Shown: piece after piece, positions 4,977-63,908 of the stretch | Position numbering within the stretch: position 1 is the first letter of the stretch | How the letters are laid out: the number at the start of each line of letters is the position of its first letter | Origin: Longimicrobiales bacterium | Lineage (GTDB): Bacteria; Gemmatimonadota; Gemmatimonadetes; Longimicrobiales; Gaopeijiaceae | NCBI GenBank assembly: GCA_041690395.1 | Contig: JAWLHJ010000003.1 | Location: 480,001 to 544,000, forward strand | Direction of reading: 5' to 3' | Length of the DNA stretch: 64,000 nt | The notes under the pieces: generated by a model | Databases searched by the model: none | Seen by the model: the letters and a program-made list of their open reading frames with translations, nothing else | Told to the model about the DNA's origin: nothing | Position numbers and translations under genes: made by a program

Positions 4977-6013
4977 GTGTACCGGACCCCCGATCCTTCG
5001 GTCACCCGTCCGATGACCCTCGCGCCCAGGCCGGCCGCGGCGGCGGCGTCGAGCACCTCGCCGGCGTCGCCCTCGCGGGCCACGGCGATCATGCCGACGC
5101 CCATGTTGAAGACGCGGTCCATCTCGTCACGGGACACCTTCCCCGCCTCCTGGAGCGTCCGGAAGACGGCCGGGACCTCCCAGGAGCTCCGGTCCACGAC
5201 CGCGCCGAGCCCCTCGGGGAGCACGCGCGGCAGGTTGCCGGGAATGCCGCCGCCGGTGATGTGGGCGAGCCCCCGCACCCGGCCGGCCTCGAGCAGCGGC
5301 CAGAGGAGCGGGAGGTAGCTCCTGTGCACGGCGAGTAGCTCGTCGGCCACGGAGCGCCCCGTGCCCGGGAGCTCGTCGTCGACGCCGAGTCCCATGACCT
5401 CGAACACGATCTTCCGGGCGAGCGTGTATCCATTCGTGTGCAGCCCCGAGGCGTCGATGCCCACCAGAGCGTCTCCCTCACGGATGGCCGAGCCGTCGAG
5501 GATGCGGCCGTGCTCCACGACGCCCACGATGAAGCCCGCCAGATCGTATTCGTCCGCCGCGTAGAAGTCGGGCATCTGGGCCGTCTCGCCGCCCAGGAGC
5601 GCACACCGGTTCTCCTTGCACGCCGTCGCCACGCCGTGCACCACGTCGTGCACCACCGTCTCGTCCATCTCACCCGTGGCGAGGTAGTCGAGGAAGAAGA
5701 GCGGCTTCGCACCCTGCACCAGGATGTCGTTGACGCAGTGGTTCACCAGGCACTGACCCACGGTGTCGTGGCGGCCGGCCAGGAAGGCCACCTTGAGCTT
5801 CGTGCCGACGCCGTCCGCGCTCGACACCAGAACCGGCGCCTCCACGTCGTCCGGAACCTGGTAGAGACCGCCGAAGGCCCCGAGCTCGGAGAGCGTGAAT
5901 CGGTCGCGGGTCGAGGCCACCAGGGCCTTCAGCCGATCCTTGGTGCGCTCGGCGGCGTCCAGATCGACACCGGCGTCGCGGTAGCTCAGTCCCTCACGCG
6001 GCCCTTCGGTCAT
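4973..6013 (-). CDS. purM: Phosphoribosylformylglycinamidine cyclo-ligase (AIR synthetase)
   Basis: YRDAGVD, DGVGTK, LFFLDY, GGETAQMP, SGLHTNGY, HITGGG, FNMGVG. Confidence 0.97.
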   Translation of the reverse strand: MTEGPREGLSYRDAGVDLDAAERTKDRLKALVASTRDRFTLSELGAFGGLYQVPDDVEAPVLVSSADGVGTKLKVAFLAGRHDTVGQCLVNHCVNDILVQGAKPLFFLDYLATGEMDETVVHDVVHGVATACKENRCALLGGETAQMPDFYAADEYDLAGFIVGVVEHGRILDGSAIREGDALVGIDASGLHTNGYTLARKIVFEVMGLGVDDELPGTGRSVADELLAVHRSYLPLLWPLLEAGRVRGLAHITGGGIPGNLPRVLPEGLGAVVDRSSWEVPAVFRTLQEAGKVSRDEMDRVFNMGVGMIAVAREGDAGEVLDAAAAAGLGARVIGRVTEGSGVRYT

Positions 6014-49288: not shown

Positions 49289-49630
49289 ATGGCCCCCACC
49301 GTTCTCGGACAGTTCGAGCACCAGGTACTCCTGGCGATCCTCCGCCTCGGCTCCGAAGCCTACAGCGTGGAGATCGTCTCGGAGCTGGAGCGCAGCACCG
49401 GCAAGGAGGTAGCCACGTCGGCAGTGTTCGTTTCGCTGCGGCGCATGAAGGCGAAGGACCTGCTCCTGGATAGGATGGTGGAGCCCGGGGAGGAAGGAGG
49501 CCACTCGCGACGCTACTTCCGGCTCACCGAGGAGGCCCTCGACGCCCTGCGTGCCTCGCGCCAGAGCTTCCTCAAGCTCTGGGACGGCGTGGAGGCGGCC
49601 CTCGACGAGCCACGGCCTGACACGCCATGA
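49289..49630 (+). CDS. PadR-family transcriptional regulator
   Basis: [38 protein letters not shown] before ATG 49289. Confidence 0.9.
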
Positions 49631-52284
49631 CCGACTGGGAAGTTGGGTCGGGTCCGCCCAAGCTGGCCCGACGACTTCTGGCCCTGCTGGTGGACGAGGC
49701 GCAACGCGACGACGTGGATTCGACCCTCGCGGAGCTCTTCCGTGAGCGGGTGGCCCGAGATGGCGCAGGTGCGGCGACACGATGGTACTGGCGCCAGGTG
49801 GGCGGATTCGCTGCGCGCTGGCGCCCATTCAACACGGGAATGGGGGGGTGGACGACGATGGACATGTGGACCAGAGATCTCCGGCACGGGCTGCGCTCGC
49901 TGATCCGCGCACCGGGCTTCACACTCATCGCCGTGGGGACGCTGGCGCTGGGCATCGGTGCCAACACCGCCATCTTCAGCCTGATCGCGGGCACCCTCCT
50001 GAGACCCCTTCCCTACGACCAGCCCGAGCGGCTGGTCTGGCTCTCCGATGGCCACCCGAACTTCGGGGGTGGGGGCACGAACCAATCCGTCCCCAACCTC
50101 ATGGATCTGCAGGCGGGCTCCCGCCTCATGAGTTCGTCGGCCATCTACCGGGTCCTGGGCGGCAACCTCGCCACCGACGAGGACGCGGTGCGCATCCCGA
50201 TCCTGTTCACCTCGTCGCCGATGCTCGGCGTACTGGGTGTTCCGCCCCGCCTGGGGCGCGACCTGCTTCCTACCGACGACGGCGCGGGCGCGGAGCCCGT
50301 GGCGATCCTCACCGATGATCTCTGGCGGTCCACCTTCGGCGCCGACCCCGACGTGGTCGGACGAACGGTACAGGTGGACGCCCGGCCGGTGCGCGTCATC
50401 GGGGTGCTTCCTCGCGACTTCACTTTCGAGGACGATCCCAAGCTGGTCATGGCGCTCCAACACCTGGGCGCCGACCTGAGCCGGGGGGGCAGAGGCTACA
50501 ACGGAGTGGCCCGCCTGGCCCCAGGCGCTGACCCGAGGGCACTCACCGCCGAGTTGCAAGGCATCTTCTCAGGTCTGACCGACGAGTACCCGCAGGTGAA
50601 CGAGGGGTGGTTCACCATGGCCGAGCCTCTTCAGGAGCATGTCATCGGACAGAACCGTCATTCGCTGCTTCTCCTGGGCGGTGCGGCGGCCCTCGTGCTC
50701 CTCATAGCCTGCGTCAACGTCGCCAACCTGCTGCTGGTCCGGGCCGAGCGACGTCACCGGGAGTTGGCGGTGCGGTATTCCCTGGGGGCCCGTAGGTCGG
50801 GGCTCGTCTCCCTATTCCTCTCCGAAGGTCTGGTCCTGGGCCTGGCCGGAGGCGCGCTGGGGGTCGCCGGGGCGTACGGGGGCATCGACCTGCTCGTGTC
50901 CCTGTACGGCAGCACCCTGGCTCGAGCCGACGCCGTCGGCATCGACGGAACCGTCCTTGGCATCACTCTGGCGACGTCCCTCCTGGTGGGCATCGGGGTG
51001 GGGCTGGCCCCGCTGACCCGCGTGCGCCCTGACGAGCTCCAGGGCCACCTCCGAGAAGGCGCGCGGGGCTCCTCGGGACGCGGCAGCCGGCTGGGCAACG
51101 CCCTGGTCGTGGCGGAGGTGGCCCTCTCCGTCGTAGTCGTGGCCGGCGCCGGGCTTCTGGCCAACAGCATGTGGCGTCTCCAGCAAGTGGACCTGGGTGT
51201 GCACCGCGCCGACCAGGTCATGACCTTCACGCTGTCCCTGCCTGCGGCAGCGTACCCCACGTCCGAGACGATCGCGCAGTTCACCGGTGAGCTGGATGGT
51301 CGACTGATGGCCACCCCCGGGGTGGAGGCGGTGGGCTTCGTGAACCGGCTCCCTCTCGTGGGTGGGGACAACACCACCGTCTACGTGTGGGGCGACGAGG
51401 AGCGGAAGGCCGACTTCACGTCCATCCGCTCCATCACGCCCGGGTACTTCGACGCCGTTGGTGTCCCCCTCCTGTCGGGCCGATGGCTCACCGAGGATGA
51501 GTTCCGTGGGGAGACCTCGTCGGCGATCATCAACCAGACCCTCGCCCGACAGCTCTTCGGTTCGGAGGACCCCCTGGGACAGCGGATCGACGTCCGCGGG
51601 ATCGAAGGAGGTCTGGTCGTGGTGGGCGTGGTCGCCGACATCGCCGGGGGACGCCCGGACCGTCCGGCACCCGGTGCCTTCTACTACCCCATGCGCACGC
51701 GGCTGAAACTCGCGGCGTCCCAACCGCGCTCCGCCGACGACTTCTGGGGCATGGCCGCCCTCGTCCGGACCGCGGGTGAGCCCCAGGCGCTGGTTCCCGC
51801 CTTACGGGAGGCGGTGGGCGCTGGAGACCCGGGCATGCCCTTGAGCTACGTCCGCACCCTCCAGGACATCGCCACCGACCGCCTGGGAACCCGTCGCTTC
51901 GCCTTGTCCCTGTTCGGTGTCTTTGCCGGCCTCGCACTGCTCTTGGGTACCGTGGGAATCTATGGCGTCATGTCCTACAGCGTGGCCCAACGCGCCCGCG
52001 AGATGGGGGTGAGGATGGCCTTGGGGGCCAGCCGGGGATCGGTGCTCCGTCTGGTCCTGGGCGAGAGCGCCCGCCTCACCGTTCCGGGAGTGATCCTGGG
52101 CCTGTTGGGCGCCATGGCGTCGGCGCGGGTGCTGGGCAGCCTCCTCTTCGAGGTCAGCCCGCTCGACCTGTGGACGTACGCATCGGTGGCCGCGGTCCTG
52201 GCGTTGGTCTCCGTGGCGGCCACCTGGCTCCCGGCATGGAGGGCCACGCGGGTGGATCCCATGACGAGCATGCGCGCTGAGTAA
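49627..52284 (+). CDS. Duplicated MacB/FtsX-type ABC permease (ADOP family)
   Basis: [72 protein letters not shown]. Confidence 0.93.
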
Positions 52285-54856: not shown

Positions 54857-57526
54857 CTACTCCTCCCGCAGCGCCTCCGTCGGCGCGATGCGCGTCGCCC
54901 GCAGCGCCGGCACGAGCGAGGCCGCCGTCCCGACCAGCAGGAGCCCCAGGGGGAGCACGGTGAACGTGACCGGATCGTTCTCCGAGACGCCGAACAGGAG
55001 CGAGGCCACCAACTCGCGGGCGAACCACGCCCCCGAGAGCCCGAGCAGGAGCCCCAGCACGACGGGCCGCACGCCCTCCCCGACGATCATGCGCGTGACG
55101 GCGTGCCGCCCGGCGCCCAGGGCCACGCGGATCCCGATCTCGCGGGTGCGACCGGCGACCGAGTACGACACGACGCCGTAGATACCCACGGCGGCGAGGA
55201 CGAGCGCGATCGCCGCGAACAGAACGAGGAGCGTGGTCACGAGCCGGGTGTCGGCATAGGCCGCGGTCACGGTCTCCTCGAGGGTGGTCACGTCATAGAG
55301 CGGGAGGTCGGCGTCGAAGTCCGCGACGGCACGGCGCACGGCCTCGTTCACGGTCTCCGGTCCGAGGGGGCTCCGCACGGCGACCTGATAGGTGCGGGGG
55401 AAGCCGTAGGCCGAGATCCCCGATTGGTGCGCCGGGAGATACACCTGCGGATTCGCGGCCTGGTCCACGCGGGTGTTCACCTGATCGGGGACGACGCCGA
55501 CCGCGGTGATCCACGTGGTCGCCGAGTCTCCCGTCGGATAGGCCCACCGCTTTCCGACGGCGCTCTCCCCGGGCCAGAAGGTCCGGGCCATGGTCTCGCT
55601 GACGATGCCCACCATGGCCCCGTCGGCGCGGTCGGCTTCGGTGAAGCCCCGCCCCTCCAGCACCGGGATCCCCAGGGCCTCGAAATAACCCGGGAGCACG
55701 AGGGCGATCTCCGCGCTCCAGGCCTGGTCCCCCTCCTCGCGAGGTGGACGGTCGTCGAGGAGGAAGTCCCACCGGGACGAGCTCCTCGAGTAGGGGAGCG
55801 CCGAGCTGGCGGCCACCGCGGTCACGCCCGGCAACGCCCGGAGGGACTCCACCATGCGGCCCATGTCCTCCGGCGCCTCGTCGTCCTCGGGATAGGACGC
55901 GGCCGGGAGGCTGACGGTGAACGTGAGGACGTTCTCCACCTCGAGTCCGGGATCGGCGGCGGTGAGCGCGGCCATGGTCCGGCCCATGAGCCCCGCCACG
56001 ATGACCACCACGAGCCCGAGGGCCACCTCACCCGTCACGAGCGCACGGCGCAACCTGGAGCGGGCGCGGCTCCCCGTGGACCGCGAGCCGGCCACGGCGA
56101 CCGACCGAGCGACCTTCCGACTCGCGAGGAGCGCCGGCGCCACGCCGAAGAGAAGGGTGGTCGCCACCGCCGCGGCCAGAGCGAAGAGGAGGACCGTGCC
56201 GTCCACCTGCACCTGGTCCAGCCGCGGAAGCGCGCCCGGATCCATGGCGATGAGCAGCCGCGTCCCGCCATACGCCAGAGCCAGGCCCAGCACGGCGCCA
56301 CCCGCCGCCAGAAGAAGCGACTCGGTCACCAGCTGCCGCGTGATGCGGCCGGCACCGGCCCCGAGGGCCGCCCGCACCGCCACCTCCGCGTGCCTGCGCT
56401 CACCCCGCGCCAGCAGGAGGTTGGCCACGTTGGCGCATCCGATGAGGAGGACCAACCCGACCGCGACCGAGAGGGAGAGCAGGATGCCCGGCGCGTCACC
56501 CAGCATATCCGCCTTCAGCGTCGCGGCCCAGGCGAAGTGAGCCACATTGTGCTCGAACTCCTGGGCCCATCGGTCTCCGATCAGGGTGAGCTCCGCGTCC
56601 AGGTCGGCCTGGGTCACCCCGGCTTGCCTGCGCCCCACCGCGCCCCACCCGTGGGCGCCCCGCCCGTAGCCCGACGCGGCCGCACGGTCGATCCCGAGGG
56701 GCAGATACGCTTCGGCCATCCCCGGAAACGCGAAGCCCCCGGGCATGACGCCCACCACCCGCGTGGCCTCACCGTTCACGTCGAGGGAGGTCCCGACCAC
56801 CTGCGGGTCGCCCCCGAACCGGCGCTGCCAGAGGTCGTGCCCCAACACGATGACCGGCGCCGCACCCGGGGTGTCGTCCTCGGCGGTGAACCACCGTCCG
56901 TGCAGGGGCGTCACGCCGAGAACGGGAAACATGTCCCGGGAGAAGAGCCCCACGGCCACGCGCTCGGCCTCGGCGCCGTCTCCGGTGAGCGTGCGGGTGG
57001 AGTTCGTCCACATCCCCAGGCGCTCGAAGCCTCGCACGCCCTCCTGGATGTCGTAGAACTCCGGCACCGAGAGGAAGAACTTCTCGATGTCGAAGCCGGA
57101 GGCCGGGAGGTACCGGGTCCAGACGATGGAGAGGCGGTCGGGCTCGGGATACGGTAGGGGCCGGAGCAGCACGGCGTTCAGGACGCTGAACACGGCCGTG
57201 CCCGCTCCGATGGCCACGGCGAGGGTCAGCACCGCGGTGGTCGCGAAGGCCGGCGCCCGGCGGAGCTGTCGCCATGCGAAGGCCAGGTTCTGCCGCGTCT
57301 CGTCCCAGAGGTGCCCTATCGTCGTCTTCATCTCCCGTCCCCTCCCCTGTTGGCGCATCCTCGCCTTCACCCGGTCCAGGTCCCCGAGGCGGCGCAGCGC
57401 CTCGGCCCGGGCGTCGTCTTCACTCCACCCCTGCCCGACCAGCTCCCTCACACGCATGTCCACGTGGAAGCGGAGCTCCTCCTCCACCTCCCGGTCCAGG
57501 GACGGACGCTCGATGCGCGGGTCCAC
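54857..57526 (-). CDS. Duplicated MacB/FtsX-type ABC permease (ADOP family) with N-terminal prefix domain
   Basis: EVEEELRFHVDMR..ARAEALRRLGD prefix; TLAVAIGAGTAVFS, LIGCANVANLLL, GIYGVVSYSV, REIGIRVALGA. Confidence 0.93.
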   Translation of the reverse strand: MDPRIERPSLDREVEEELRFHVDMRVRELVGQGWSEDDARAEALRRLGDLDRVKARMRQQGRGREMKTTIGHLWDETRQNLAFAWRQLRRAPAFATTAVLTLAVAIGAGTAVFSVLNAVLLRPLPYPEPDRLSIVWTRYLPASGFDIEKFFLSVPEFYDIQEGVRGFERLGMWTNSTRTLTGDGAEAERVAVGLFSRDMFPVLGVTPLHGRWFTAEDDTPGAAPVIVLGHDLWQRRFGGDPQVVGTSLDVNGEATRVVGVMPGGFAFPGMAEAYLPLGIDRAAASGYGRGAHGWGAVGRRQAGVTQADLDAELTLIGDRWAQEFEHNVAHFAWAATLKADMLGDAPGILLSLSVAVGLVLLIGCANVANLLLARGERRHAEVAVRAALGAGAGRITRQLVTESLLLAAGGAVLGLALAYGGTRLLIAMDPGALPRLDQVQVDGTVLLFALAAAVATTLLFGVAPALLASRKVARSVAVAGSRSTGSRARSRLRRALVTGEVALGLVVVIVAGLMGRTMAALTAADPGLEVENVLTFTVSLPAASYPEDDEAPEDMGRMVESLRALPGVTAVAASSALPYSRSSSRWDFLLDDRPPREEGDQAWSAEIALVLPGYFEALGIPVLEGRGFTEADRADGAMVGIVSETMARTFWPGESAVGKRWAYPTGDSATTWITAVGVVPDQVNTRVDQAANPQVYLPAHQSGISAYGFPRTYQVAVRSPLGPETVNEAVRRAVADFDADLPLYDVTTLEETVTAAYADTRLVTTLLVLFAAIALVLAAVGIYGVVSYSVAGRTREIGIRVALGAGRHAVTRMIVGEGVRPVVLGLLLGLSGAWFARELVASLLFGVSENDPVTFTVLPLGLLLVGTAASLVPALRATRIAPTEALREE

Positions 57527-57538
57527 GACCGGTCTCCG

Positions 57539-57874
57539 TCAGCCTGTTCCGAGCACCCGGCTCACCGCGCCCGAGAACGACGCCCACGCCTCGATCTCGG
57601 CCTCCAGACGGGCCCGCCCCTTGCGGGTAAGGTGGTAGAACTTCGCTCGGCGCTCGAGCTCGGAGACGCCCCACTCGGAGCGGAGAAGGCCCTTCTTCTC
57701 CATCCGATACAGGGCCGGGTAGAGCGAGCCCTCCTCCACCCTGAGCGCCTCGTCGGTCTCCTCCTCCAGCCAGCGGGCGATGGCGTAGCCGTGGCGAGGT
57801 CCGTGAGAGAGCGTCTTCAGGATGAGCGTGTCCAGCGTCCCGTGCAGGAGCTGGTTCCGTTCCCGCGGCGTCAT
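57539..57874 (-). CDS. PadR-family transcriptional regulator (acidobacterial type)
   Basis: LLHGTLDTLILKTL, HGYAIA, EEGSLYPALYRME, WGVSE..RRAKFY. Confidence 0.94.
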   Translation of the reverse strand: MTPRERNQLLHGTLDTLILKTLSHGPRHGYAIARWLEEETDEALRVEEGSLYPALYRMEKKGLLRSEWGVSELERRAKFYHLTRKGRARLEAEIEAWASFSGAVSRVLGTG

Positions 57875-57935: not shown

Positions 57936-57981
57936 GTTTGACGGATTGCACCCAGTGAAGTGCCGGGGCCGACCCGACGGC

Positions 57982-58000
57982 CGGCCCCGGTCCGGGGCCG
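57982..58000 (-). terminator. GC palindrome at the end of the DUF3618-type operon
   Basis: CGGCCCCGG-T-CCGGGGCCG with flanking GACCCG/CGGGTC. Confidence 0.4.
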
Positions 58001-58007
58001 TCGCGGG

Positions 58008-58856
58008 TCAGTCCGTGAGCCGCTCGTCGGTGCGCTCGCTCGACGGTGCGCCCTGCTTCACCTCCCGGGTCACATCCTCGGCCAGGGATCCGGCTTCGTC
58101 CTTCACCACGTCCGCGGCCGCACCCATGGCTTCATCCTCCCACCTGCTCGTGGGCGCGGCGAGTCCACTCGCCAGTCCCAGGCCGAACGCGACCGCACCC
58201 AGCGCCAGAGGCTGCTCGTCCATCGCGGATCGCAGACCGTGCCTGGCTTTCTCCACACCGCGCCTGGCGCCTTTCCGTGCCCGGGCCGCCGCATGCCGGG
58301 CCCGCTCCGCCGTCTCGCCCGCTCCGTCGCCTTCCTCGGTGCCGTACCAGGCGGGGGCTTCGCCGTTGCCGGAATCGTCCTCGTCCGACGATCCGAAGCT
58401 GTCCTTGGCGTCGGCCAGCATCCCTTTGGCCTTCTCGGCCACTTCCGACGCCTTCTGTTTCGCCTTGTCCATGGAGGACGGCTCTGGCGACTTGTGGGCC
58501 GTATCGCCCCGATAGGGCCCTACGCGTCCCTCGGCGCGCCCATAGGTCCCCGGACCGACCCCACCATCCCGGGCATCCTCCCGATCCGAGCCCGTGACGC
58601 TGTCGACGGCCAACCACGCGACACCGAGTCCCATCAGGGCCAGCGGGACCGGATGGTCACGGATCGTGTGCCCGAGGTTCGAGACCGCGTCGCCCGCCGC
58701 CCGACGTCCGCCGACACGTCCCCACACCTCGTCGACGACCTGACCCAGCGAGAGCTTCCGCTCGAGGGCCGTGACCGTGTCGCGCAGCTCCGTACGCGTC
58801 CCCTCTATGTCGCGCCGGATCTCGTCGGAGCTCCGGTGAGTCTGTCGCTCAGCCAT
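58008..58856 (-). CDS. DUF3618-domain protein
   Basis: SSDEIRRDIEGTRTELRDTVTALERKLS; HPVPLALMGLG; QPLALGAVAFGLG..APTSRWED. Confidence 0.8.
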   Translation of the reverse strand: MAERQTHRSSDEIRRDIEGTRTELRDTVTALERKLSLGQVVDEVWGRVGGRRAAGDAVSNLGHTIRDHPVPLALMGLGVAWLAVDSVTGSDREDARDGGVGPGTYGRAEGRVGPYRGDTAHKSPEPSSMDKAKQKASEVAEKAKGMLADAKDSFGSSDEDDSGNGEAPAWYGTEEGDGAGETAERARHAAARARKGARRGVEKARHGLRSAMDEQPLALGAVAFGLGLASGLAAPTSRWEDEAMGAAADVVKDEAGSLAEDVTREVKQGAPSSERTDERLTD

Positions 58857-59337
58857 GCCGTACCTCCCGTACCTGCTGCTGGACCCAGTTCTTCTCCTCG
58901 CGGAGTGTCCGCATCGTCTGGGTCGGAGTGAGCCCCTCGCGCTTCATCTCGCTCTGCGCGTTGCGGGTCATGCCCCAACCGGTCACCCCGGCGACCAGCG
59001 CGAGAATCAGTGGCGCCATCCAGACCGCCACCTCCGCGGTCATGAACTGGCCCAGAAGGACGGTGAGGCCACGATTCACCGCGACGAGCAGGACGAAGAA
59101 GGCACCGAGTAGCATGGCGCCCCCCACCACCATCTTCACCGTATTGCGCTCGTAGACCTCCATCTTCTCCCGGAGCTCGGCCTTGGCGAGTTGGACCTCT
59201 TCTCGAATGAGGCGGCCACCTTCGTCACCCAGCTCCTTGATGAGACTCCCGAGGGATCGATCGTCGACGGGTCGGAGATACGGTTGCGTCTCACCGTTAC
59301 CGGTGCTGACCGGGGTCCGATCCTGGGGGCGTGCCAT
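58849..59337 (-). CDS. Phage-holin-like (YhjD/DUF1469-type) membrane protein
   Basis: RSLGSLIKEL, LIREEVQLAKAELRE, two TM helices, PTQTMRTLREE; ATG at 59337. Confidence 0.8.
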   Translation of the reverse strand: MARPQDRTPVSTGNGETQPYLRPVDDRSLGSLIKELGDEGGRLIREEVQLAKAELREKMEVYERNTVKMVVGGAMLLGAFFVLLVAVNRGLTVLLGQFMTAEVAVWMAPLILALVAGVTGWGMTRNAQSEMKREGLTPTQTMRTLREEKNWVQQQVREVRHG

Positions 59338-59831
59338 CAGCGCCTCCCCTCGTACAGAGGTGACGACGGATACTCGTCCCACAAGCTGGCTCCATCGGGA
59401 CCGCCGTTCCGTCGGTCAGGTCCCTCCTCGGGACGAGACGAGCGGAGGAAGCGACCGGCCGCGACTCCGGCGGCGAACGACGTCCCGAGGAACGTTCCCG
59501 GATTCTTCCGGGCCATGTCCTCGAGGTCCGCCAGCATCGCGGGCGCGTCTTCGTCATGGAGATACTGGGTCACGCGCTCGAGCTGACCGGCTGCCCGTCG
59601 GGTGTAGTCGGCGAGCCAGTCCTGGCCTTCGCCTTCGAGGTCCTCGGCCGCGAGCCTCATCGCGTGCCCGACCGACTCCAGTCCGTCCGCGAGCTTGGTC
59701 GATCGACGATCGATCGCGCCCTCGGCGGCCTGCTTGACCTGGTCGGCGACCTCCCTGCCCTGGACCTTCAGGTCTCTCACCTCGTCCTTCACCATCGCTT
59801 TGGCTCGGTCGGGTGGGTGCTGATCTGCCAT
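59337..59831 (-). CDS. Helical hypothetical protein with C-terminal membrane anchor (ElaB/YqjD-like tail)
   Basis: DLEDMARKNPGTFLGTSFAAGVAAGRFLRSS; GGAGG before ATG 59831. Confidence 0.75.
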   Translation of the reverse strand: MADQHPPDRAKAMVKDEVRDLKVQGREVADQVKQAAEGAIDRRSTKLADGLESVGHAMRLAAEDLEGEGQDWLADYTRRAAGQLERVTQYLHDEDAPAMLADLEDMARKNPGTFLGTSFAAGVAAGRFLRSSRPEEGPDRRNGGPDGASLWDEYPSSPLYEGRR

Positions 59832-60059: not shown

Positions 60060-60089
60060 CCCCGGTCGAGGGCATCGCCTCGACCGGGG
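60060..60089 (-). terminator. 12-bp stem hairpin downstream of the lipoprotein gene
   Basis: CCCCGGTCGAGG-GCATCG-CCTCGACCGGGG, 12 nt after the stop at 60102. Confidence 0.6.
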
Positions 60090-60101: not shown

Positions 60102-60800
60102 CTAGTGGGCGTGGGCCGCGCCCTGATGGTGGGCGCAGGTGGCGTTCGGGTTGAACTGGGCGAACATCCCCCGAGGATTCTCCCGGTACAGCCACACGTG
60201 GAGGTCGTAGTGCGGCTCGAACATGTGCGCCTCGTCCAGAGCGGTGGCGGGATCGTCCGCCATGAGGTTGTACGGCACCCCCTGGAAGGACGGACGCTCA
60301 TGGTTGCCGGCCGCCTCCCAGGCCTCGATGAACACGAGGTTCTCCACCGCCACGAGCTCCCGGGAGCCGTCGGCCTGAGGCTCGTAGATGAGGATCGAGG
60401 GCCGCAAGAAGTCCGTGTGCGTTCCGGTCCCGCTCACACGTGGGTTGGGAGGGCCTGACACGCCGAGGAGGTCCGGGCGGAAGTAGTGGATGCCCATGAC
60501 CCCGTCCTCGGCGGGCCGGCCCATCATCTCGGCTGTGTCACACAGGTCCATGGGGTCCGGCACGTACCCCTCGGCCAGGGCGACCTGGACGTCGCGGAAG
60601 CGGAGGGTGGCCTCCCGCACGGCCTCCAGGCTCGGATCGGCGGTGGGACGAGCAGCCGCTTCCGGGGCATCCGCCGCGAGTCCGGAGCGGGACAGTTCCG
60701 GCTCTCGCGCATCGGAAGGCGTGCAGGCAGCGAGCGCCGTGAGGGCGAGGAGCACACGGCCCACCGGCATGATGAATCGAGATGTGGTGTTGCTGTTCAT
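60102..60800 (-). CDS. Uncharacterised His/Met-rich lipoprotein
   Basis: GGAGG SD, lipobox LAAC; MGIHY, PSILIYEP, LVAVE, HYDLHVW..NP.G.F..FNP...C, His-rich tail. Confidence 0.85.
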   Translation of the reverse strand: MNSNTTSRFIMPVGRVLLALTALAACTPSDAREPELSRSGLAADAPEAAARPTADPSLEAVREATLRFRDVQVALAEGYVPDPMDLCDTAEMMGRPAEDGVMGIHYFRPDLLGVSGPPNPRVSGTGTHTDFLRPSILIYEPQADGSRELVAVENLVFIEAWEAAGNHERPSFQGVPYNLMADDPATALDEAHMFEPHYDLHVWLYRENPRGMFAQFNPNATCAHHQGAAHAH

Positions 60801-60862
60801 GGAATCCTCCCATGTCGTCTATATGGATGTCGTACCGGGCCCCTGCCCGCGCACGTGACTCG

Positions 60863-60906
60863 ATGCTAGAAGGGAGGCGGTTACAGCCCGATTACTGGGG
60901 GATTAC
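60863..60906 (-). promoter_or_regulatory. SARP-type activator site: three heptamers at 11-bp period followed by a -10 box
   Basis: Minus strand GTAATCC-N4-GTAATCG-N4-GTAACCG-N9-TAGCAT; no -35 consensus. Confidence 0.75.
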
Positions 60907-63900
60907 CGGCGGGACCCGGCGGAGCCGGGCGGTGGGGTTCCACCTGCCCCGGCGCGCAACTCGTCGTACAGGGCGACCGTGGCCCGGTCGGGCTCGACGC
61001 CCAGCTCGTCCCGGAGGAGGACGCGGAGGGTCTCGTAGAGACGGAGTGCCTCGGTGCGGGCGCCGGTCCGCGCCATGCAGACCATGAGCTGCCGGCCCGC
61101 CTCCTCGTGCAGTCGGTCCGACGCCAGAACGGTCCGGAACGCCTCCGCGGCCGGCGCGAACCGCTCCCGCGAGACCTCGAAGAGCCCCAGCGCCATGAGC
61201 GCGTCGTGGCGGCATCTTCTCAGCCGCTCACGAAGCTCGAGGTGCCAGTCCCCGGCCGTCTCCCCCTCCAGGAAGTCCCCCCGGTAGAGGGCCAGGGCCG
61301 CCCGGAGGCGCTCCGCGGCATCGGACCGGTCCAGGGGGCGGCGGAGGATCGCTTCGATGCCCCGCTCGAACCGTTCCACGTCGAAGTCGACGGTGAGACT
61401 CGAATCCAGGCGGTAACGGTCGCCAGCCACCACGATCCAATCGGGACGGCCCAGGGCCTTTCGCAGACGATGCAGCGTCACGTGGAAGCTGTTCTTCACC
61501 TGCGACGCCGACGCGTCCGGCCAGAACGCCAGCCCGACCTGCTCGCGGGTGCGACCGTCCGCATGGCACAGGAGGAGCAGCAGGAGCTCGCGAGGCTTAC
61601 CGGACACGAAGGCCTCGCCCGGCAGGGGGCGCTCACCCACCAGGATCTCCAGTGGGCCGAGGGCCCGAACCCGAAGATCCGCCTCGTCGGACGGGCCGAA
61701 CCCCATAGGATCCGGAACGACCTCACCGGCGGCGTCCTGGTCGGCCTCCTTGTCCGGGCCCCCGACGACCGGGGTCGCGGGATCGACCGGCGAGCGCACG
61801 ACCGTCGACAGGATCGCTTGAACGGACGTGGCGGACCCCTCCGCCCGGGCACCCTCGAACGTCCCGGCGCCGAGGCCGTCTCGGAGGTCGTCCACCAGGC
61901 GCTGGCGCTCCGCCTGTTCGTGCGGGGCCGGCACGGCGCCGATGTCGGAGCGGATCCCGTCGGCCGCGCCCATGAGACGGGCCGCGAGCTCCCCCTGCCC
62001 CCGCATGGCCAGGAGCAGCGTCCCCACCTCGGCGGCCTGCAGGAGGCCCCACCGGTCTTCGTGGCGGAGCAGGAGCGGAATCGCTTCCGCGAGACACTCG
62101 CGAGCGCCGTCCGGGTCGCCCTGCAGCATGAGCGTCCGGGCCAGAGCGGTGAGCGGATGTCCGATGCTCGGATGGCTCCCGAAGCGCCGCGCCACGCCCA
62201 CCGAGGTCTGGTAGGCTGCCCGCGCCGTGTCGAGATCGCCGTGGGTCTGGGCAACCACCCCCCGCCAGTAGCTTCCGAACGCGTAAAGGAGCGCCCGCGG
62301 GAAATCGTCCGGAGGGAAGCGAGCGGGATCGCCGAGGGCGGCCTCCGCCTCGCCGAACAGCCGCCCCGAGGTGCCCGCGTCACCTCCCAGCCCCACGATC
62401 GTGGCGAGGCCCGACAGGGCGAAGGCCAGGTCCGTCGGCGCGCCCTCCGTCCGCAACAGCTCGACCGCCTCCTCCATGGGGCCCCGCACCGCTCCGTGAT
62501 CCCCCATCCAGAAGGCCAGGTACCCCAGGGCCGTCAGCGCACGTCCCCGAAGCCGCGGCGATGCGGAGCCGTCCGTGGCCAGGGCGGCTTCCAGCCGGCG
62601 ACGGGATTCCCCGAAATGACCGACGGCGAAGTGGAGCCAGTGGAGGGCCGCGCCGAACCGGAGCTCCAGCACGGCCCGCGCTTCCCCCTCCGCGCACCAC
62701 GCCATGGCCGCCCTGAGGTTCCCGTGCTCCCGCTCGAGGCGGTTCATCCAGGGCGTGCCGCGTGTGCCCCCCAGCACATGGGGCTCGGCCGTCTCGGCCA
62801 GATCGAGGAAGAAGCCGGCGTGGCGCCGTCGTAGCTCCTCGACGTCGTCACCCTCCAGGAGGCGTTCCTGGGCGTACTGACGCACGGTCTCGAGGAGCGC
62901 GTAGCGAGCCTCTCCCTGTTCCTCGCTCACCGCCACGAGTGACCGGTCGACGAGGCCCGAGAGCAGGTCCAGCACGTCCTCTGGACGGATGGGCTCGTAG
63001 GCCGTCACGGCTTCCGCCGCGTCCAGCGTGAAGCCGCCAGCGAAGACGGAGAGCCGCCGCATGAGGCATCGCTCTTCCGACGAGAGGAGCGTGTAACTCC
63101 AGTCGATGAGCGCGCGGAGCGTCCGGTGGCGCGGCAACACGACGTGAGAGCTGCTCGAGAGCAGATCGAGCATGGAGTCGAGGCGGCCGGCCAGCTGCTC
63201 CGGCGACAGCACGCGCAGGCGGGCGGCAGCGAGTTCCAGGGCCAGGGGAAGCCCGTCCAACATCCGGCAGATGCGGACCACGGCGGAGGCGTTCTCGGCG
63301 GTGAGCGTGAAGCCGGGCATCGCGTCCTGCGCACGCTCCACGAACAACCGCACCGAAGCCGCCTCGAGAGCCGCCGGGGTGTCTCCGGCCGGAACGTCCA
63401 GAGGCGGCACCGGCCAGACCTTCTCTCCGGCGATGCCCAACGCCTGGCGGCTGGTCACGACGACGTGCAACGCGGGACAGTCCCGTAGAAGCGCGTCCAC
63501 GAGCCGCGCACAGGCCTCGATCAGGTGCTCGCAGTTGTCCAACACCAGAAGGGGCGAACCCTCCCCCAGAACGTCCGCCAGGATCGCGAAGCTGGTGGCC
63601 CCCGCGTGCTCCCGGAGCCCCAGGCTGCAGGCCGCATGCTCGCCGACGAGCTCGGGCTCCCGGAGGGTCGTCAGGTCGATCCAGGCGACCGGGGTGTCGG
63701 GGCGACTTCCCACGGCTTCCGCCACCGCAGCGGCGAGACGGGTCTTTCCACTGCCTCCTGCCCCCACGAGGGAAATCAGGCGGCGACTCCGGAGGAGACG
63801 ACGGATCTCCGCGATCTCCCGGTCGCGACCGACCTGGGCGGTGAGGTAGGCAGGGACCCGGGCGGACGCGGGAAACGCGGTCGCTCGGGCACGCATGCGC

Positions 63901-63908
63901 GAGGGCAT
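60903..63908 (-). CDS. STAND-type ATPase / TPR / C-terminal OmpR-like HTH + BTAD transcriptional regulator
   Basis: GAGGSGKT, LVLDNCEHL, LDGLPLALELAAAR, RHRTLRALIDWSY; TPR-like region; LRVRALGPL, FWPD, LHRLRKALG, LYRGDFL, ELGVEP. Confidence 0.9.
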   Translation of the reverse strand: MPSRMRARATAFPASARVPAYLTAQVGRDREIAEIRRLLRSRRLISLVGAGGSGKTRLAAAVAEAVGSRPDTPVAWIDLTTLREPELVGEHAACSLGLREHAGATSFAILADVLGEGSPLLVLDNCEHLIEACARLVDALLRDCPALHVVVTSRQALGIAGEKVWPVPPLDVPAGDTPAALEAASVRLFVERAQDAMPGFTLTAENASAVVRICRMLDGLPLALELAAARLRVLSPEQLAGRLDSMLDLLSSSSHVVLPRHRTLRALIDWSYTLLSSEERCLMRRLSVFAGGFTLDAAEAVTAYEPIRPEDVLDLLSGLVDRSLVAVSEEQGEARYALLETVRQYAQERLLEGDDVEELRRRHAGFFLDLAETAEPHVLGGTRGTPWMNRLEREHGNLRAAMAWCAEGEARAVLELRFGAALHWLHFAVGHFGESRRRLEAALATDGSASPRLRGRALTALGYLAFWMGDHGAVRGPMEEAVELLRTEGAPTDLAFALSGLATIVGLGGDAGTSGRLFGEAEAALGDPARFPPDDFPRALLYAFGSYWRGVVAQTHGDLDTARAAYQTSVGVARRFGSHPSIGHPLTALARTLMLQGDPDGARECLAEAIPLLLRHEDRWGLLQAAEVGTLLLAMRGQGELAARLMGAADGIRSDIGAVPAPHEQAERQRLVDDLRDGLGAGTFEGARAEGSATSVQAILSTVVRSPVDPATPVVGGPDKEADQDAAGEVVPDPMGFGPSDEADLRVRALGPLEILVGERPLPGEAFVSGKPRELLLLLLCHADGRTREQVGLAFWPDASASQVKNSFHVTLHRLRKALGRPDWIVVAGDRYRLDSSLTVDFDVERFERGIEAILRRPLDRSDAAERLRAALALYRGDFLEGETAGDWHLELRERLRRCRHDALMALGLFEVSRERFAPAAEAFRTVLASDRLHEEAGRQLMVCMARTGARTEALRLYETLRVLLRDELGVEPDRATVALYDELRAGAGGTPPPGSAGSRR

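What the first reader, a model, noticed from the sequence alone, without database searches (positions are those of the whole stretch)
60102..63908. Reversed AfsR-like STAND-SARP activator with a visible target promoter overlapping its own stop codon
Seen: the regulator has ATPase-TPR first and the OmpR-like HTH + BTAD module last, the reverse of Streptomyces AfsR. Directly behind it lie three heptamers GTAA(T/C)C(C/G) at exactly 11-bp period, 9 nt before a TAGCAT -10 box with no -35. The first heptamer contains the regulator's TAA stop, although TGA dominates in this window. Known: SARPs bind 11-bp-phased direct repeats ending about 8 nt above the -10, and AfsR activates the adjacent afsS. Inference: a two-gene sensor/effector module in which a ligand-gated STAND protein switches on a single exported lipoprotein, bounded by a hairpin at 60060-60089.
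Basis: partly seen in the sequence, partly recalled or inferred. Interest (0 to 1): 0.82.

Follow-up and report, generated by a model that had tools for sequence, protein, structure and literature searches.

The report
Back-to-front AfsR activator with its operator
A probable Gemmatimonadota bacterium encodes the modules of the Streptomyces antibiotic activator AfsR in swapped order, and a helically phased DNA repeat that recurs beside dozens of related genes likely marks where this protein binds to switch on a neighbouring gene for a predicted exported protein.

Summary
Observation confirmed. The 1001-aa protein is AfsR with its halves swapped (NOD-TPR first, SARP module last); AfsR is the best solved relative of both halves. 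The three GTAA boxes are the only such triple in the genome, and the same box (11-bp period, 8-9 nt above a -10) recurs beside related regulators in held-out genomes (6 of 20 loci, 0 in shuffles). Leaderless starts 6-7 nt behind the hexamer in relatives support the -10. The regulator-lipoprotein pair is kept in the regulator's own clade, but across the family the box fronts about five exported-protein families, adjacent or unlinked, and a small gene upstream of the regulator. The stop-codon overlap is likely incidental read-through: 11 of 15 downstream arrays lie behind TGA/TAG stops. The hairpin lacks a U-tract. AfsR's HD latch is replaced by LE; binding, activation and ligand are untested. 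No paper on this family was found. The scan noted related reversed (MalT-type) SARP regulators with phased repeats on other DNA. Verdict: new variant of a known kind.

The parts
60903..63908 (-). Regulator gene, 1001 aa: NOD (STAND ATPase) - TPR - linker - OmpR-type wHTH + BTAD (SARP module); P0001
62874..63851 (-). NOD, about aa 20-345: Walker A GAGGSGKT, Walker B LLVLDNCE, sensor R154, GLP motif; LLE where AfsR has FHD
   Evidence: K55 105/106, D124 104/106, R154 106/106, E340 105/106
61794..62843 (-). Arm and TPR helical repeats, about aa 356-705; predicted sensor
   Evidence: sensor role inferred from PH0952/MalT (PMC6468293 abstract)
60954..61676 (-). C-terminal SARP module, about aa 745-985; recognition helix aa 801-819 with H809, V810, R814, R816, K817
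   Evidence: (TM 0.81-0.82 to AfsR SARP chains, rmsd 2.9-3.0)
60900..60906 (-). Box 1 GTAATCC; holds the regulator's TAA stop (60905-60903)
60889..60895 (-). Box 2 GTAATCG (upstream member of the promoter-proximal pair)
60878..60884 (-). Box 3 GTAACCG (promoter-proximal), 9 nt above the -10
60863..60868 (-). Predicted -10 element TAGCAT
   Evidence: T, A, T positions kept in L001 as TAACGT; leaderless starts 6-7 nt behind the equivalent hexamer in relatives
60855..60856 (-). Predicted transcription start (A60856 most likely)
   Evidence: inferred from the 6-7 nt hexamer-to-start-codon distance in 11 of 17 leaderless relatives; not measured
60806..60810 (-). Shine-Dalgarno-like GGAGG
60102..60800 (-). 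Predicted lipoprotein, 232 aa (lipobox LAAC, Cys26), no Pfam/NCBIfam family; conserved Cys87/Cys222, Met102, His105, His192, His197, His201, Trp203; weak fold likeness to TTHB210; P0002
60060..60089 (.). G+C-rich hairpin (12-bp perfect stem, extendable to 16 pairs) behind the lipoprotein stop, no U-tract

Best explanation
The gene at 63908-60903 encodes an AfsR-like STAND protein whose SARP module sits at the C-terminus, and it likely activates the adjacent lipoprotein gene by binding the phased GTAA boxes in place of a -35 element. Shown: domain order, intact ATPase motifs, the boxes, their recurrence beside relatives. Inferred from AfsR structures: two SARP modules would sit side by side on boxes 2 and 3, contact sigma region 4, the beta flap and alphaCTD, and open a weak -10-only promoter starting near 60856; box 1 would admit a third protomer. 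Inferred from MalT/PH0952/AfsR: the NOD-TPR part would hold the protein off until an unknown cytoplasmic signal allows ADP/ATP exchange; a likely consequence of the swapped order is that output hangs on a flexible linker behind the sensor, as in MalT. The TAA overlap likely arises because the disordered tail runs on to the first in-frame stop, which the AT-rich box supplies. Family-wide, the same box likely defines a small regulon of exported proteins and, in many relatives, a positive feedback loop through a leaderless gene upstream of the regulator.
For: AfsR is the top PDB match for both halves in swapped order (profile 8-631 to AfsR 279-924; 719-969 to 18-265; E 3.8e-36). AfsR DNA/RNAP-contact residues named in PMC10936776 are kept (read from the alignment, counts): W74=W796 106/106, R92=R814 103/106, R94=R816 106/106, K95=K817 95/106, E76=D/E798 105/106, R173=R895 95/106, E213=E935 106/106, E246=E968 100/106. 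A pattern built from 7 sites matched 6 of 20 regulator loci from other orders and 0 times in 100 shuffles; 9 of 47 metagenome loci at >=45% identity and 0 of 7 more distant BTAD loci. TAA[GTC][CGA] pairs in 56 downstream regions: 12 at 11 bp against 0.1 expected. Among 33 sites, period 11 in 28 and spacer 8 in 26, 9 in 7, none at 7 or 10 although allowed. With the common spacer the hexamer GTAAGC lies in the same register as AfsR's TTCAGC core (4 of 6 identical). A matrix trained on 32 sites from other genomes ranks the window site first in G000 (28.0 bits; reversed-sequence control maximum 18.8). The regulator's clade L065/L084/L085 (100/100) carries the same lipoprotein family behind boxes in all 3, as does L250. 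The genome's other SARP genes have different adjacent repeats.
Against: No binding, transcription or expression data. Genome-wide the strict pattern is at chance level (36 matches in 351 genomes against about 36 reversed-pattern controls, counted by eye); the signal is its position next to regulators. 14 of 20 held-out loci and 38 of 47 metagenome loci lack a strict match in the DNA held. Only 2 of 23 family homologues of the lipoprotein carry the box and none of 59 wider homologues has the regulator nearby. In G001 the boxes persist without an adjacent regulator and no close orthologue was found in that 89%-complete assembly. The window's spacer is 9 nt, the minority form. AfsR contacts D71, E176, R252 are not kept, and the HD latch is LE.
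Confidence: 0.77

Rival explanations
1. The boxes are a SARP operator, but the second reversed regulator of this genome (G000 C1:671-674 kb, 37-39% identical) drives or shares the promoter, so adjacency does not identify the activator.
For: The paralogue has nearly the same helix. Unlinked boxes exist before homologous targets in G328, G284, G036, G236 and G001, so action in trans is likely in the family.
Against: The paralogue has His at the R814 position and its own adjacent repeats begin with T (TTAACCG/TCAACCG); R-type regulators go with G-first boxes in 35 of 48 loci, H-type with T-first in 9 of 11 (only 2 changes on the tree). The pair is conserved in the clade of P0001.
Confidence: 0.12
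2. The repeats are read by an unrelated winged-helix regulator (an OmpR/PhoB-family response regulator) or another sigma factor, and sit near these genes for another reason.
For: OmpR-family sites also have an 11-bp period (general knowledge); two GTAAC pairs occur elsewhere in G000, one before a phosphate-binding-protein-like gene next to a sensor kinase.
Against: The box follows the regulator family across orders on both flanks and both strands, is absent beside more distant BTAD proteins (0 of 7), and keeps the SARP geometry.
Confidence: 0.05
3. The overlap of box 1 with the stop codon is selected: bound regulator limits its own transcription or couples it to the lipoprotein gene.
For: Stop inside a phased box in L065, L077, L087, L244, L250, L301; P0003 keeps the same last residues SRR; TAA stops are 15 of 47 in the metagenome set.
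Against: 11 of 15 downstream arrays in the genome sets lie behind TGA/TAG stops; TAA is 5 of 56 there against 5.4% genome-wide; 20 of 117 TAA stops in G000 look box-like anyway. L001 keeps all three boxes with no gene ending there. The window DNA read in another frame gives LRRVPPVIPQ-stop, like the end of the close homologue P0004 (RRPPVISE), which suggests the tail simply runs to whichever box supplies a stop (protein-level inference; that DNA was not seen).
Confidence: 0.04
4. The promoter is a non-functional relic in this genome.
For: A decayed regulator followed by a box exists in G116; no RNA data are available.
Against: Both ORFs are intact; between the window and L001 the GTAA cores are 12/12 identical while the other array positions are 10/17, and the -10 keeps its T, A, T (read by eye).
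Confidence: 0.02

Closest known systems
AfsR and the afs box of afsS, Streptomyces coelicolor (PDB 8HVR, 8K60, 8JKE; PMC10936776, PMC11301090)
   Same: Same three modules, each the best PDB match; conserved DNA- and RNAP-contact residues; 11-bp direct repeats replacing -35, in the same register; adjacent target gene.
   Different: Module order swapped (SARP last); F/Y-HD latch replaced by LLE; T88 replaced by invariant Val and core hexamer GTAAGC-like instead of TTCAGC; three boxes; target is an exported protein, not a small regulator; host is not an actinomycete.
MalT of E. coli and PH0952 (STAND with TPR sensor; PMC6468293, PMC10427625)
   Same: NOD first, TPR sensor next, DNA-binding output last; PH0952 is the top Foldseek match of the whole model (E 3.2e-12). 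MalT is inhibited by partner proteins such as the esterase Aes, a possible parallel to the small upstream gene of many relatives.
   Different: Output is wHTH+BTAD, not LuxR; by sequence the NOD matches AfsR and no MalT chain is among the 60 rows shown.
SARP-LAL regulators (PimR, SanG) and EmbR
   Same: SARP module fused to regulatory domains; EmbR matches the SARP module.
   Different: The reviews read place the SARP module at the N-terminus in all classes (PMC10972967 passages; bioRxiv 10.64898/2026.09.02.748808 section 8).
TTHB210 of Thermus thermophilus (PDB 3VG8; Pfam PF18197)
   Same: Top fold match of the lipoprotein in two searches (Foldseek E 0.028; Z 4.3, rmsd 3.8, 83 aligned); 4 of 4 scanned members of another box-fronted target family pass the PF18197 cut-off.
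   Different: The lipoprotein has no Pfam match and profile comparison shares only an MG[IV]H motif (probability 1.6%); kinship is a lead only.

Membership tests
Large SARP / AfsR-like regulators | SARP module (OmpR-type wHTH followed by BTAD) | tested here: met
   BTAD E 2e-24 over cut-off; AfsR match E 1.9e-9; TM 0.81-0.82 to AfsR SARP
Large SARP / AfsR-like regulators | N-terminal SARP, central NB-ARC, C-terminal TPR order | tested here: not met
   Order is NOD-TPR-SARP; NCBIfam AfsR model 47.5 bits against cut-off 1430
Large SARP / AfsR-like regulators | F/Y-HD autoinhibition latch in the NOD | tested here: not met
   AfsR FHD aligns to LLE; L339 104/106, E340 105/106; latch described in bioRxiv 10.64898/2026.09.02.748808 sections 5, 8
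SARP-activated promoters | Direct repeats at 11 or 22 bp, 3' repeat about 8 bp above the -10, poor -35 | tested here: met
   Window: 11, 11, 9 nt; family: period 11 in 28/33, spacer 8 in 26/33; definition from PMC10936776 Introduction
SARP-activated promoters | Binding and activation by the SARP module | not testable with these tools
   Needs EMSA and transcription assays
STAND NTPases | NOD with Walker A/B, sensor Arg, GxP, winged helix, followed by a repeat sensor | tested here: met
   fold matches PH0952, Apaf-1, ZAR1
STAND NTPases | Inducer-triggered ADP/ATP exchange and oligomerisation | not testable with these tools
   Inferred by analogy only; no ligand identified
MalT/LAL regulators | C-terminal LuxR helix-turn-helix | tested here: not met
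   No LuxR/GerE family among the 15 Pfam matches at E <= 0.1; C-terminus is wHTH+BTAD
TTHB210-like proteins (PF18197), for the lipoprotein | Sequence or fold match to the family | tested here: inconclusive
   No Pfam hit; weak rank-1 fold match; hhalign 1.6%
Bacterial lipoproteins | Signal peptide with lipobox and Cys | tested here: met
   LLALTALAAC, Cys26; 55 of 59 homologues have a hydrophobic leader, 8 of 59 a lipobox by a simple rule; lipidation not measured
Intrinsic terminators | G+C hairpin followed by a U-tract | tested here: not met
   Hairpin present, U-tract absent

The most novel reading that the evidence does not exclude
Gemmatimonadota run a class-wide regulon on a module-swapped AfsR that has lost the NLR-type HD latch and is instead restrained by a small alpha/beta-hydrolase-like partner made from a leaderless mRNA under the activator's own box (a feedback loop, weakly supported by a complex prediction: 0.49 against best control 0.01). 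Its outputs are exported proteins, two families of them His/Met-rich TTHB210-like candidates for metal binding, and its operator can be read from two helix residues (Val for AfsR Thr88; Arg or His for Arg92).
Probability: 0.25. Interest if true: 0.72.

Novelty: new variant of a known kind. Interest (0 to 1): 0.52.

Why it matters
The SARP papers read describe these activators as actinomycete antibiotic regulators with the SARP module in front. Here the same modules work, by all sequence signs, in swapped order in another phylum and on envelope genes, with a definable operator. That gives a ready test of whether SARP activation geometry is portable to a C-terminal position and a non-actinobacterial polymerase, a natural STAND without the HD latch, a candidate two-residue recognition code, and one of the first predicted regulons for a common but little-studied phylum. 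It extends a known mechanism; it does not reveal a new one.

Tried and rejected
Stop-codon overlap as a conserved feature: rejected (see rivals). Genome-wide count of the strict pattern as evidence: equals its control. Second matrix hit in G000 (C1:65970, 26.9 bits, before an ArsR gene and metal ATPase): rejected as a target, because the GTAAG pair is also seen in G002, G005 and G006, where no reversed regulator was found with this query, and the proposed -10 is not kept. GTAAC pairs on C6: one lies before a phosphate-binding-protein-like gene beside a sensor kinase, likely another regulator's site; the other was not examined. Box as a property of the lipoprotein family: 2 of 23 only. Helix/box covariation as independent proof: 1 change on the SARP-only tree, 2 on the full-length tree; a lead only. 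Lipoprotein function: no Pfam/NCBIfam family, no PDB sequence match, Atlas neighbours all hypothetical, neighbours of 59 homologues recur only as divergent LysR-like genes in 9 loci (family name by eye). Hairpin as a repeat element: no full-length second copy. RNA runs: no RNA holder listed. Five non-Gemmatimonadota genomes holding the lipoprotein gave only SARP-module-length matches; the range of the architecture outside the phylum was not surveyed. Literature: nine searches listed no paper on this architecture or box; supplements were not read, and those of PMC13581612 (STAND survey) and of the bioRxiv AfsR paper could bear on this.
Full report
Observation. On the minus strand the 1001-aa ORF 63908-60903 is followed by GTAATCC, GTAATCG and GTAACCG at an exact 11-bp period, 9 nt, TAGCAT, a GGAGG and the 232-aa ORF 60800-60102. 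The TAA of box 1 is the regulator's stop. The triple is unique in the window (0.01 expected) and in the 4.33-Mb, 98%-complete genome. TAA is rare as a stop (117 of 2154 long ORFs; 2 of 37 in the window). The host is probably a Longimicrobiales member of Gemmatimonadota, inferred from source labels of homologues.

The protein. Pfam gives AAA/STAND, TPR and BTAD in that order. A profile of 106 homologues finds AfsR as best PDB match twice, in swapped order: positions 8-631 to AfsR 279-924 and 719-969 to AfsR 18-265. The model (pLDDT 90.9) shows NOD, helical repeats, a disordered linker (707-732), the SARP module and a disordered tail; Foldseek ranks PH0952 first and AfsR's SARP chains next (TM 0.81-0.82). 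Walker A/B, the sensor Arg and GxP are nearly invariant. AfsR's F/Y-HD latch, whose mutation autoactivates AfsR (bioRxiv 10.64898/2026.09.02.748808, abstract and sections 5, 6, 8 read), aligns to LLE. Of the AfsR residues that contact DNA or polymerase (PMC10936776, passages and Results parts 1-2 of 3 read; mapping read by eye), W74, E76, R92, R94, K95, R173, L211, E213, L243, E246 and L247 have conserved counterparts; R87, T88 and S91 are H809, V810 and H813 (106, 106, 105 of 106); D71, E176 and R252 are not kept. The architecture is a sizeable family: 752 proteins at E <= 1e-30 over the TPR+SARP half among 8000 scored; full-protein matches in 48 of 351 genomes of the order, not all reversed; C-half matches in 23 of 401 genomes of the phylum.

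The box follows the regulator. Of 37 complete reversed loci first examined, ten showed downstream repeats by eye, each before a co-oriented gene with a hydrophobic leader. A pattern built from seven sites (window, L067, L069, L085, L101, L102, L001) was then tested on other DNA. Across 351 genomes it gave 36 matches against about 36 controls, so the count alone means nothing; but unused matches lay within 2 kb upstream of regulators in G088 (two, divergent), G100 and G290, and behind a decayed regulator in G116. In 20 loci from other orders it matched 6, against 0 in 100 approximate dinucleotide shuffles. In 80 metagenome loci, after dropping duplicates, incomplete ends and short flanks, it matched 9 of 47 at >= 45% identity and 0 of 7 below. 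Pair distances in 56 downstream regions peak at 11 bp (12 observed, 0.1 expected; 5 against 0.1 in the 20 held-out). In 33 distinct sites the period is 11 in 28 and the spacer 8 in 26, 9 in 7. A matrix from 32 sites outside G000 ranks the window site first in its genome.

The -10. In many relatives the box precedes a ~170-aa gene directly upstream of the regulator; its start codon lies 6-7 nt behind the hexamer in 11 of 17 cases, the position expected of a leaderless transcript. This supports the -10 assignment independently and predicts a start at 60855-60856 here. With the 8-nt spacer the hexamer GTAAGC falls in the register of AfsR's core (TTCAGC at -38 to -33, repeat 11 bp on; PMC10936776), 4 of 6 identical. 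The two differing positions are those that AfsR reads with R92 and T88. Val at the T88 position facing a template thymine is a plausible code (inference). Regulators with Arg at 814 go with G-first upstream boxes (35 of 48 loci), those with His with T-first boxes (9 of 11); this rests on two changes on the tree.

Module or regulon. The regulator's clade (L065, L084, L085; 100/100) has the same lipoprotein family (83% and 68% identical) behind boxes in all three members; so does the closest metagenome hit L250, which has assembly gaps. Beyond it, targets fall into about five exported families: this one, Big_2+PD40 lipoproteins, an unnamed lipoprotein, TTHB210-like proteins, and an unnamed secreted protein. 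Unlinked boxes in G328, G284, G036 and G236 precede homologues of genes that are adjacent elsewhere. In G001 (same genus) the lipoprotein keeps all three boxes, but a divergent glycosyltransferase-like gene replaces the regulator, and only a more distant regulator in two contig-end pieces was found. Conversely only 2 of 23 family homologues of the lipoprotein carry the box and none of 59 wider homologues has the regulator in its flank. In G000 no further credible target was found, so here the regulon may indeed be one gene. The genome has 4 BTAD matches: this gene, a reversed paralogue ending in TAA within its own T-first repeats before another lipoprotein, a forward SARP divergent from a paralogue of the lipoprotein with a different 11-bp repeat, and a TPR protein without a SARP-like helix by eye.

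Stop codon and hairpin. In the genome sets the stop lies in box 1 in 4 of 15 downstream arrays (L065, L077, L087, L244); the other 11 follow TGA or TAG (tallied by eye). The window DNA in another frame reads LRRVPPVIPQ-stop at box 2, much like the end of P0004, which suggests read-through to whichever box is in frame. The hairpin is stable (z -3.06) but lacks a U-tract; in G169 and G083 another co-oriented ORF starts within about 55 nt of the lipoprotein stop.

The lipoprotein. Confident model (pLDDT 93.3); top match TTHB210 in two searches but weak. Conserved Cys pair, Met102 and four His suggest a metal site; a preprint predicts metal sites in TTHB210-like proteins (bioRxiv 10.64898/2026.10.18.759936, two passages read). 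This is a lead.

The small upstream protein. Absent from G000 by tblastn; weak Abhydrolase_1 match in 1 of 8 (E 0.027). A complex prediction with the NOD-TPR of its own regulator (L226) gave weak support: 0.49, best control 0.01; runs agree in at least 75% of contacts, partner pLDDT at least 72; the mark was reached by 116 of 157 solved complexes and 2 of 215 mismatches, but at or below 0.60 by only 18 solved ones and both mismatches. MalT is inhibited by the esterase Aes (PMC10427625, passages read), which makes an anti-activator role a reasonable guess.

Known and new. It works like AfsR at the promoter and is ordered like MalT (PMC6468293, abstract read). It fails two defining features of large SARPs (order; HD latch). 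Passages of PMC10972967 and PMC11301090 place SARP modules at the N-terminus and in actinomycetes; passages of PMC13581612 name AfsR only as a reference. Nine searches listed no study of this architecture; automated annotation already names the two domains in this order. Earlier notes of this scan describe reversed MalT-type STAND-SARP proteins with phased repeats in other genomes; they are unchecked and not counted as support. Verdict: a real, well-supported operator prediction for an undescribed module-swapped AfsR family; new variant of a known kind; interest 0.52.

Noticed in passing
L226:5998-6516, L227, L232, L237, L241, L270, L272, L289 and others: A ~170-aa alpha/beta-hydrolase-like gene, mostly leaderless, sits under the same box directly upstream of many reversed regulators; candidate feedback partner; weak complex-prediction support; not found in G000.
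   Followed up: partly
L061:6209-9405 (G000 C1:766-769 kb): A forward SARP-TolB-like-TPR membrane regulator is divergent from a paralogue of the lipoprotein; the promoter has GGCGAC twice at 11 bp above CATACT, a different box.
   Followed up: partly
L060:6618-10208 (G000 C1:670-674 kb): Second reversed regulator with TAA stop inside TTAACCG/TCAACCG repeats (period 12) above CACGTT, before an unnamed lipoprotein with homologues under the box in G058 and G236.
   Followed up: partly
L330 around 5900-6000 (G000 C1:65970): GTAAG pair between an ArsR/metal-ATPase operon and a divergent aldo/keto-reductase-like gene, also seen in three same-genus genomes; probably another element.
   Followed up: partly
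L063:1089-1955 (just beyond the window's right end): Divergent secreted protein with no Pfam match; a stretch recalls phage tail-tube proteins (recalled likeness, by eye).
   Followed up: no
L064 around 4480 (G000 C6:109487): Phased GTAAC repeats before a phosphate-binding-protein-like gene beside a sensor kinase; likely a Pho-box-type site (label recalled).
   Followed up: no
L236, L239, L242, L243, L265, L269, L278: Longer arrays of 4-6 boxes in two phased pairs behind some regulators, suggesting higher oligomers on DNA.
   Followed up: no
window 57946-59830 (-): Cluster of three small genes with phage-holin-like/DUF3618-like features typical of general stress loci (labels recalled) downstream of the hairpin.
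   Followed up: no
window 49627-52284 (+) and 54857-57874 (-): Two large ABC-permease genes of the duplicated orphan permease type, one behind a PadR-like regulator (labels recalled).
   Followed up: no
L004, L009, L011, L016, L020, L028, L036, L054, L057: Homologues of the lipoprotein in other phyla often have a LysR-like gene nearby, mostly divergent (9 of 59 loci), so the family is recruited by different activators.
   Followed up: no
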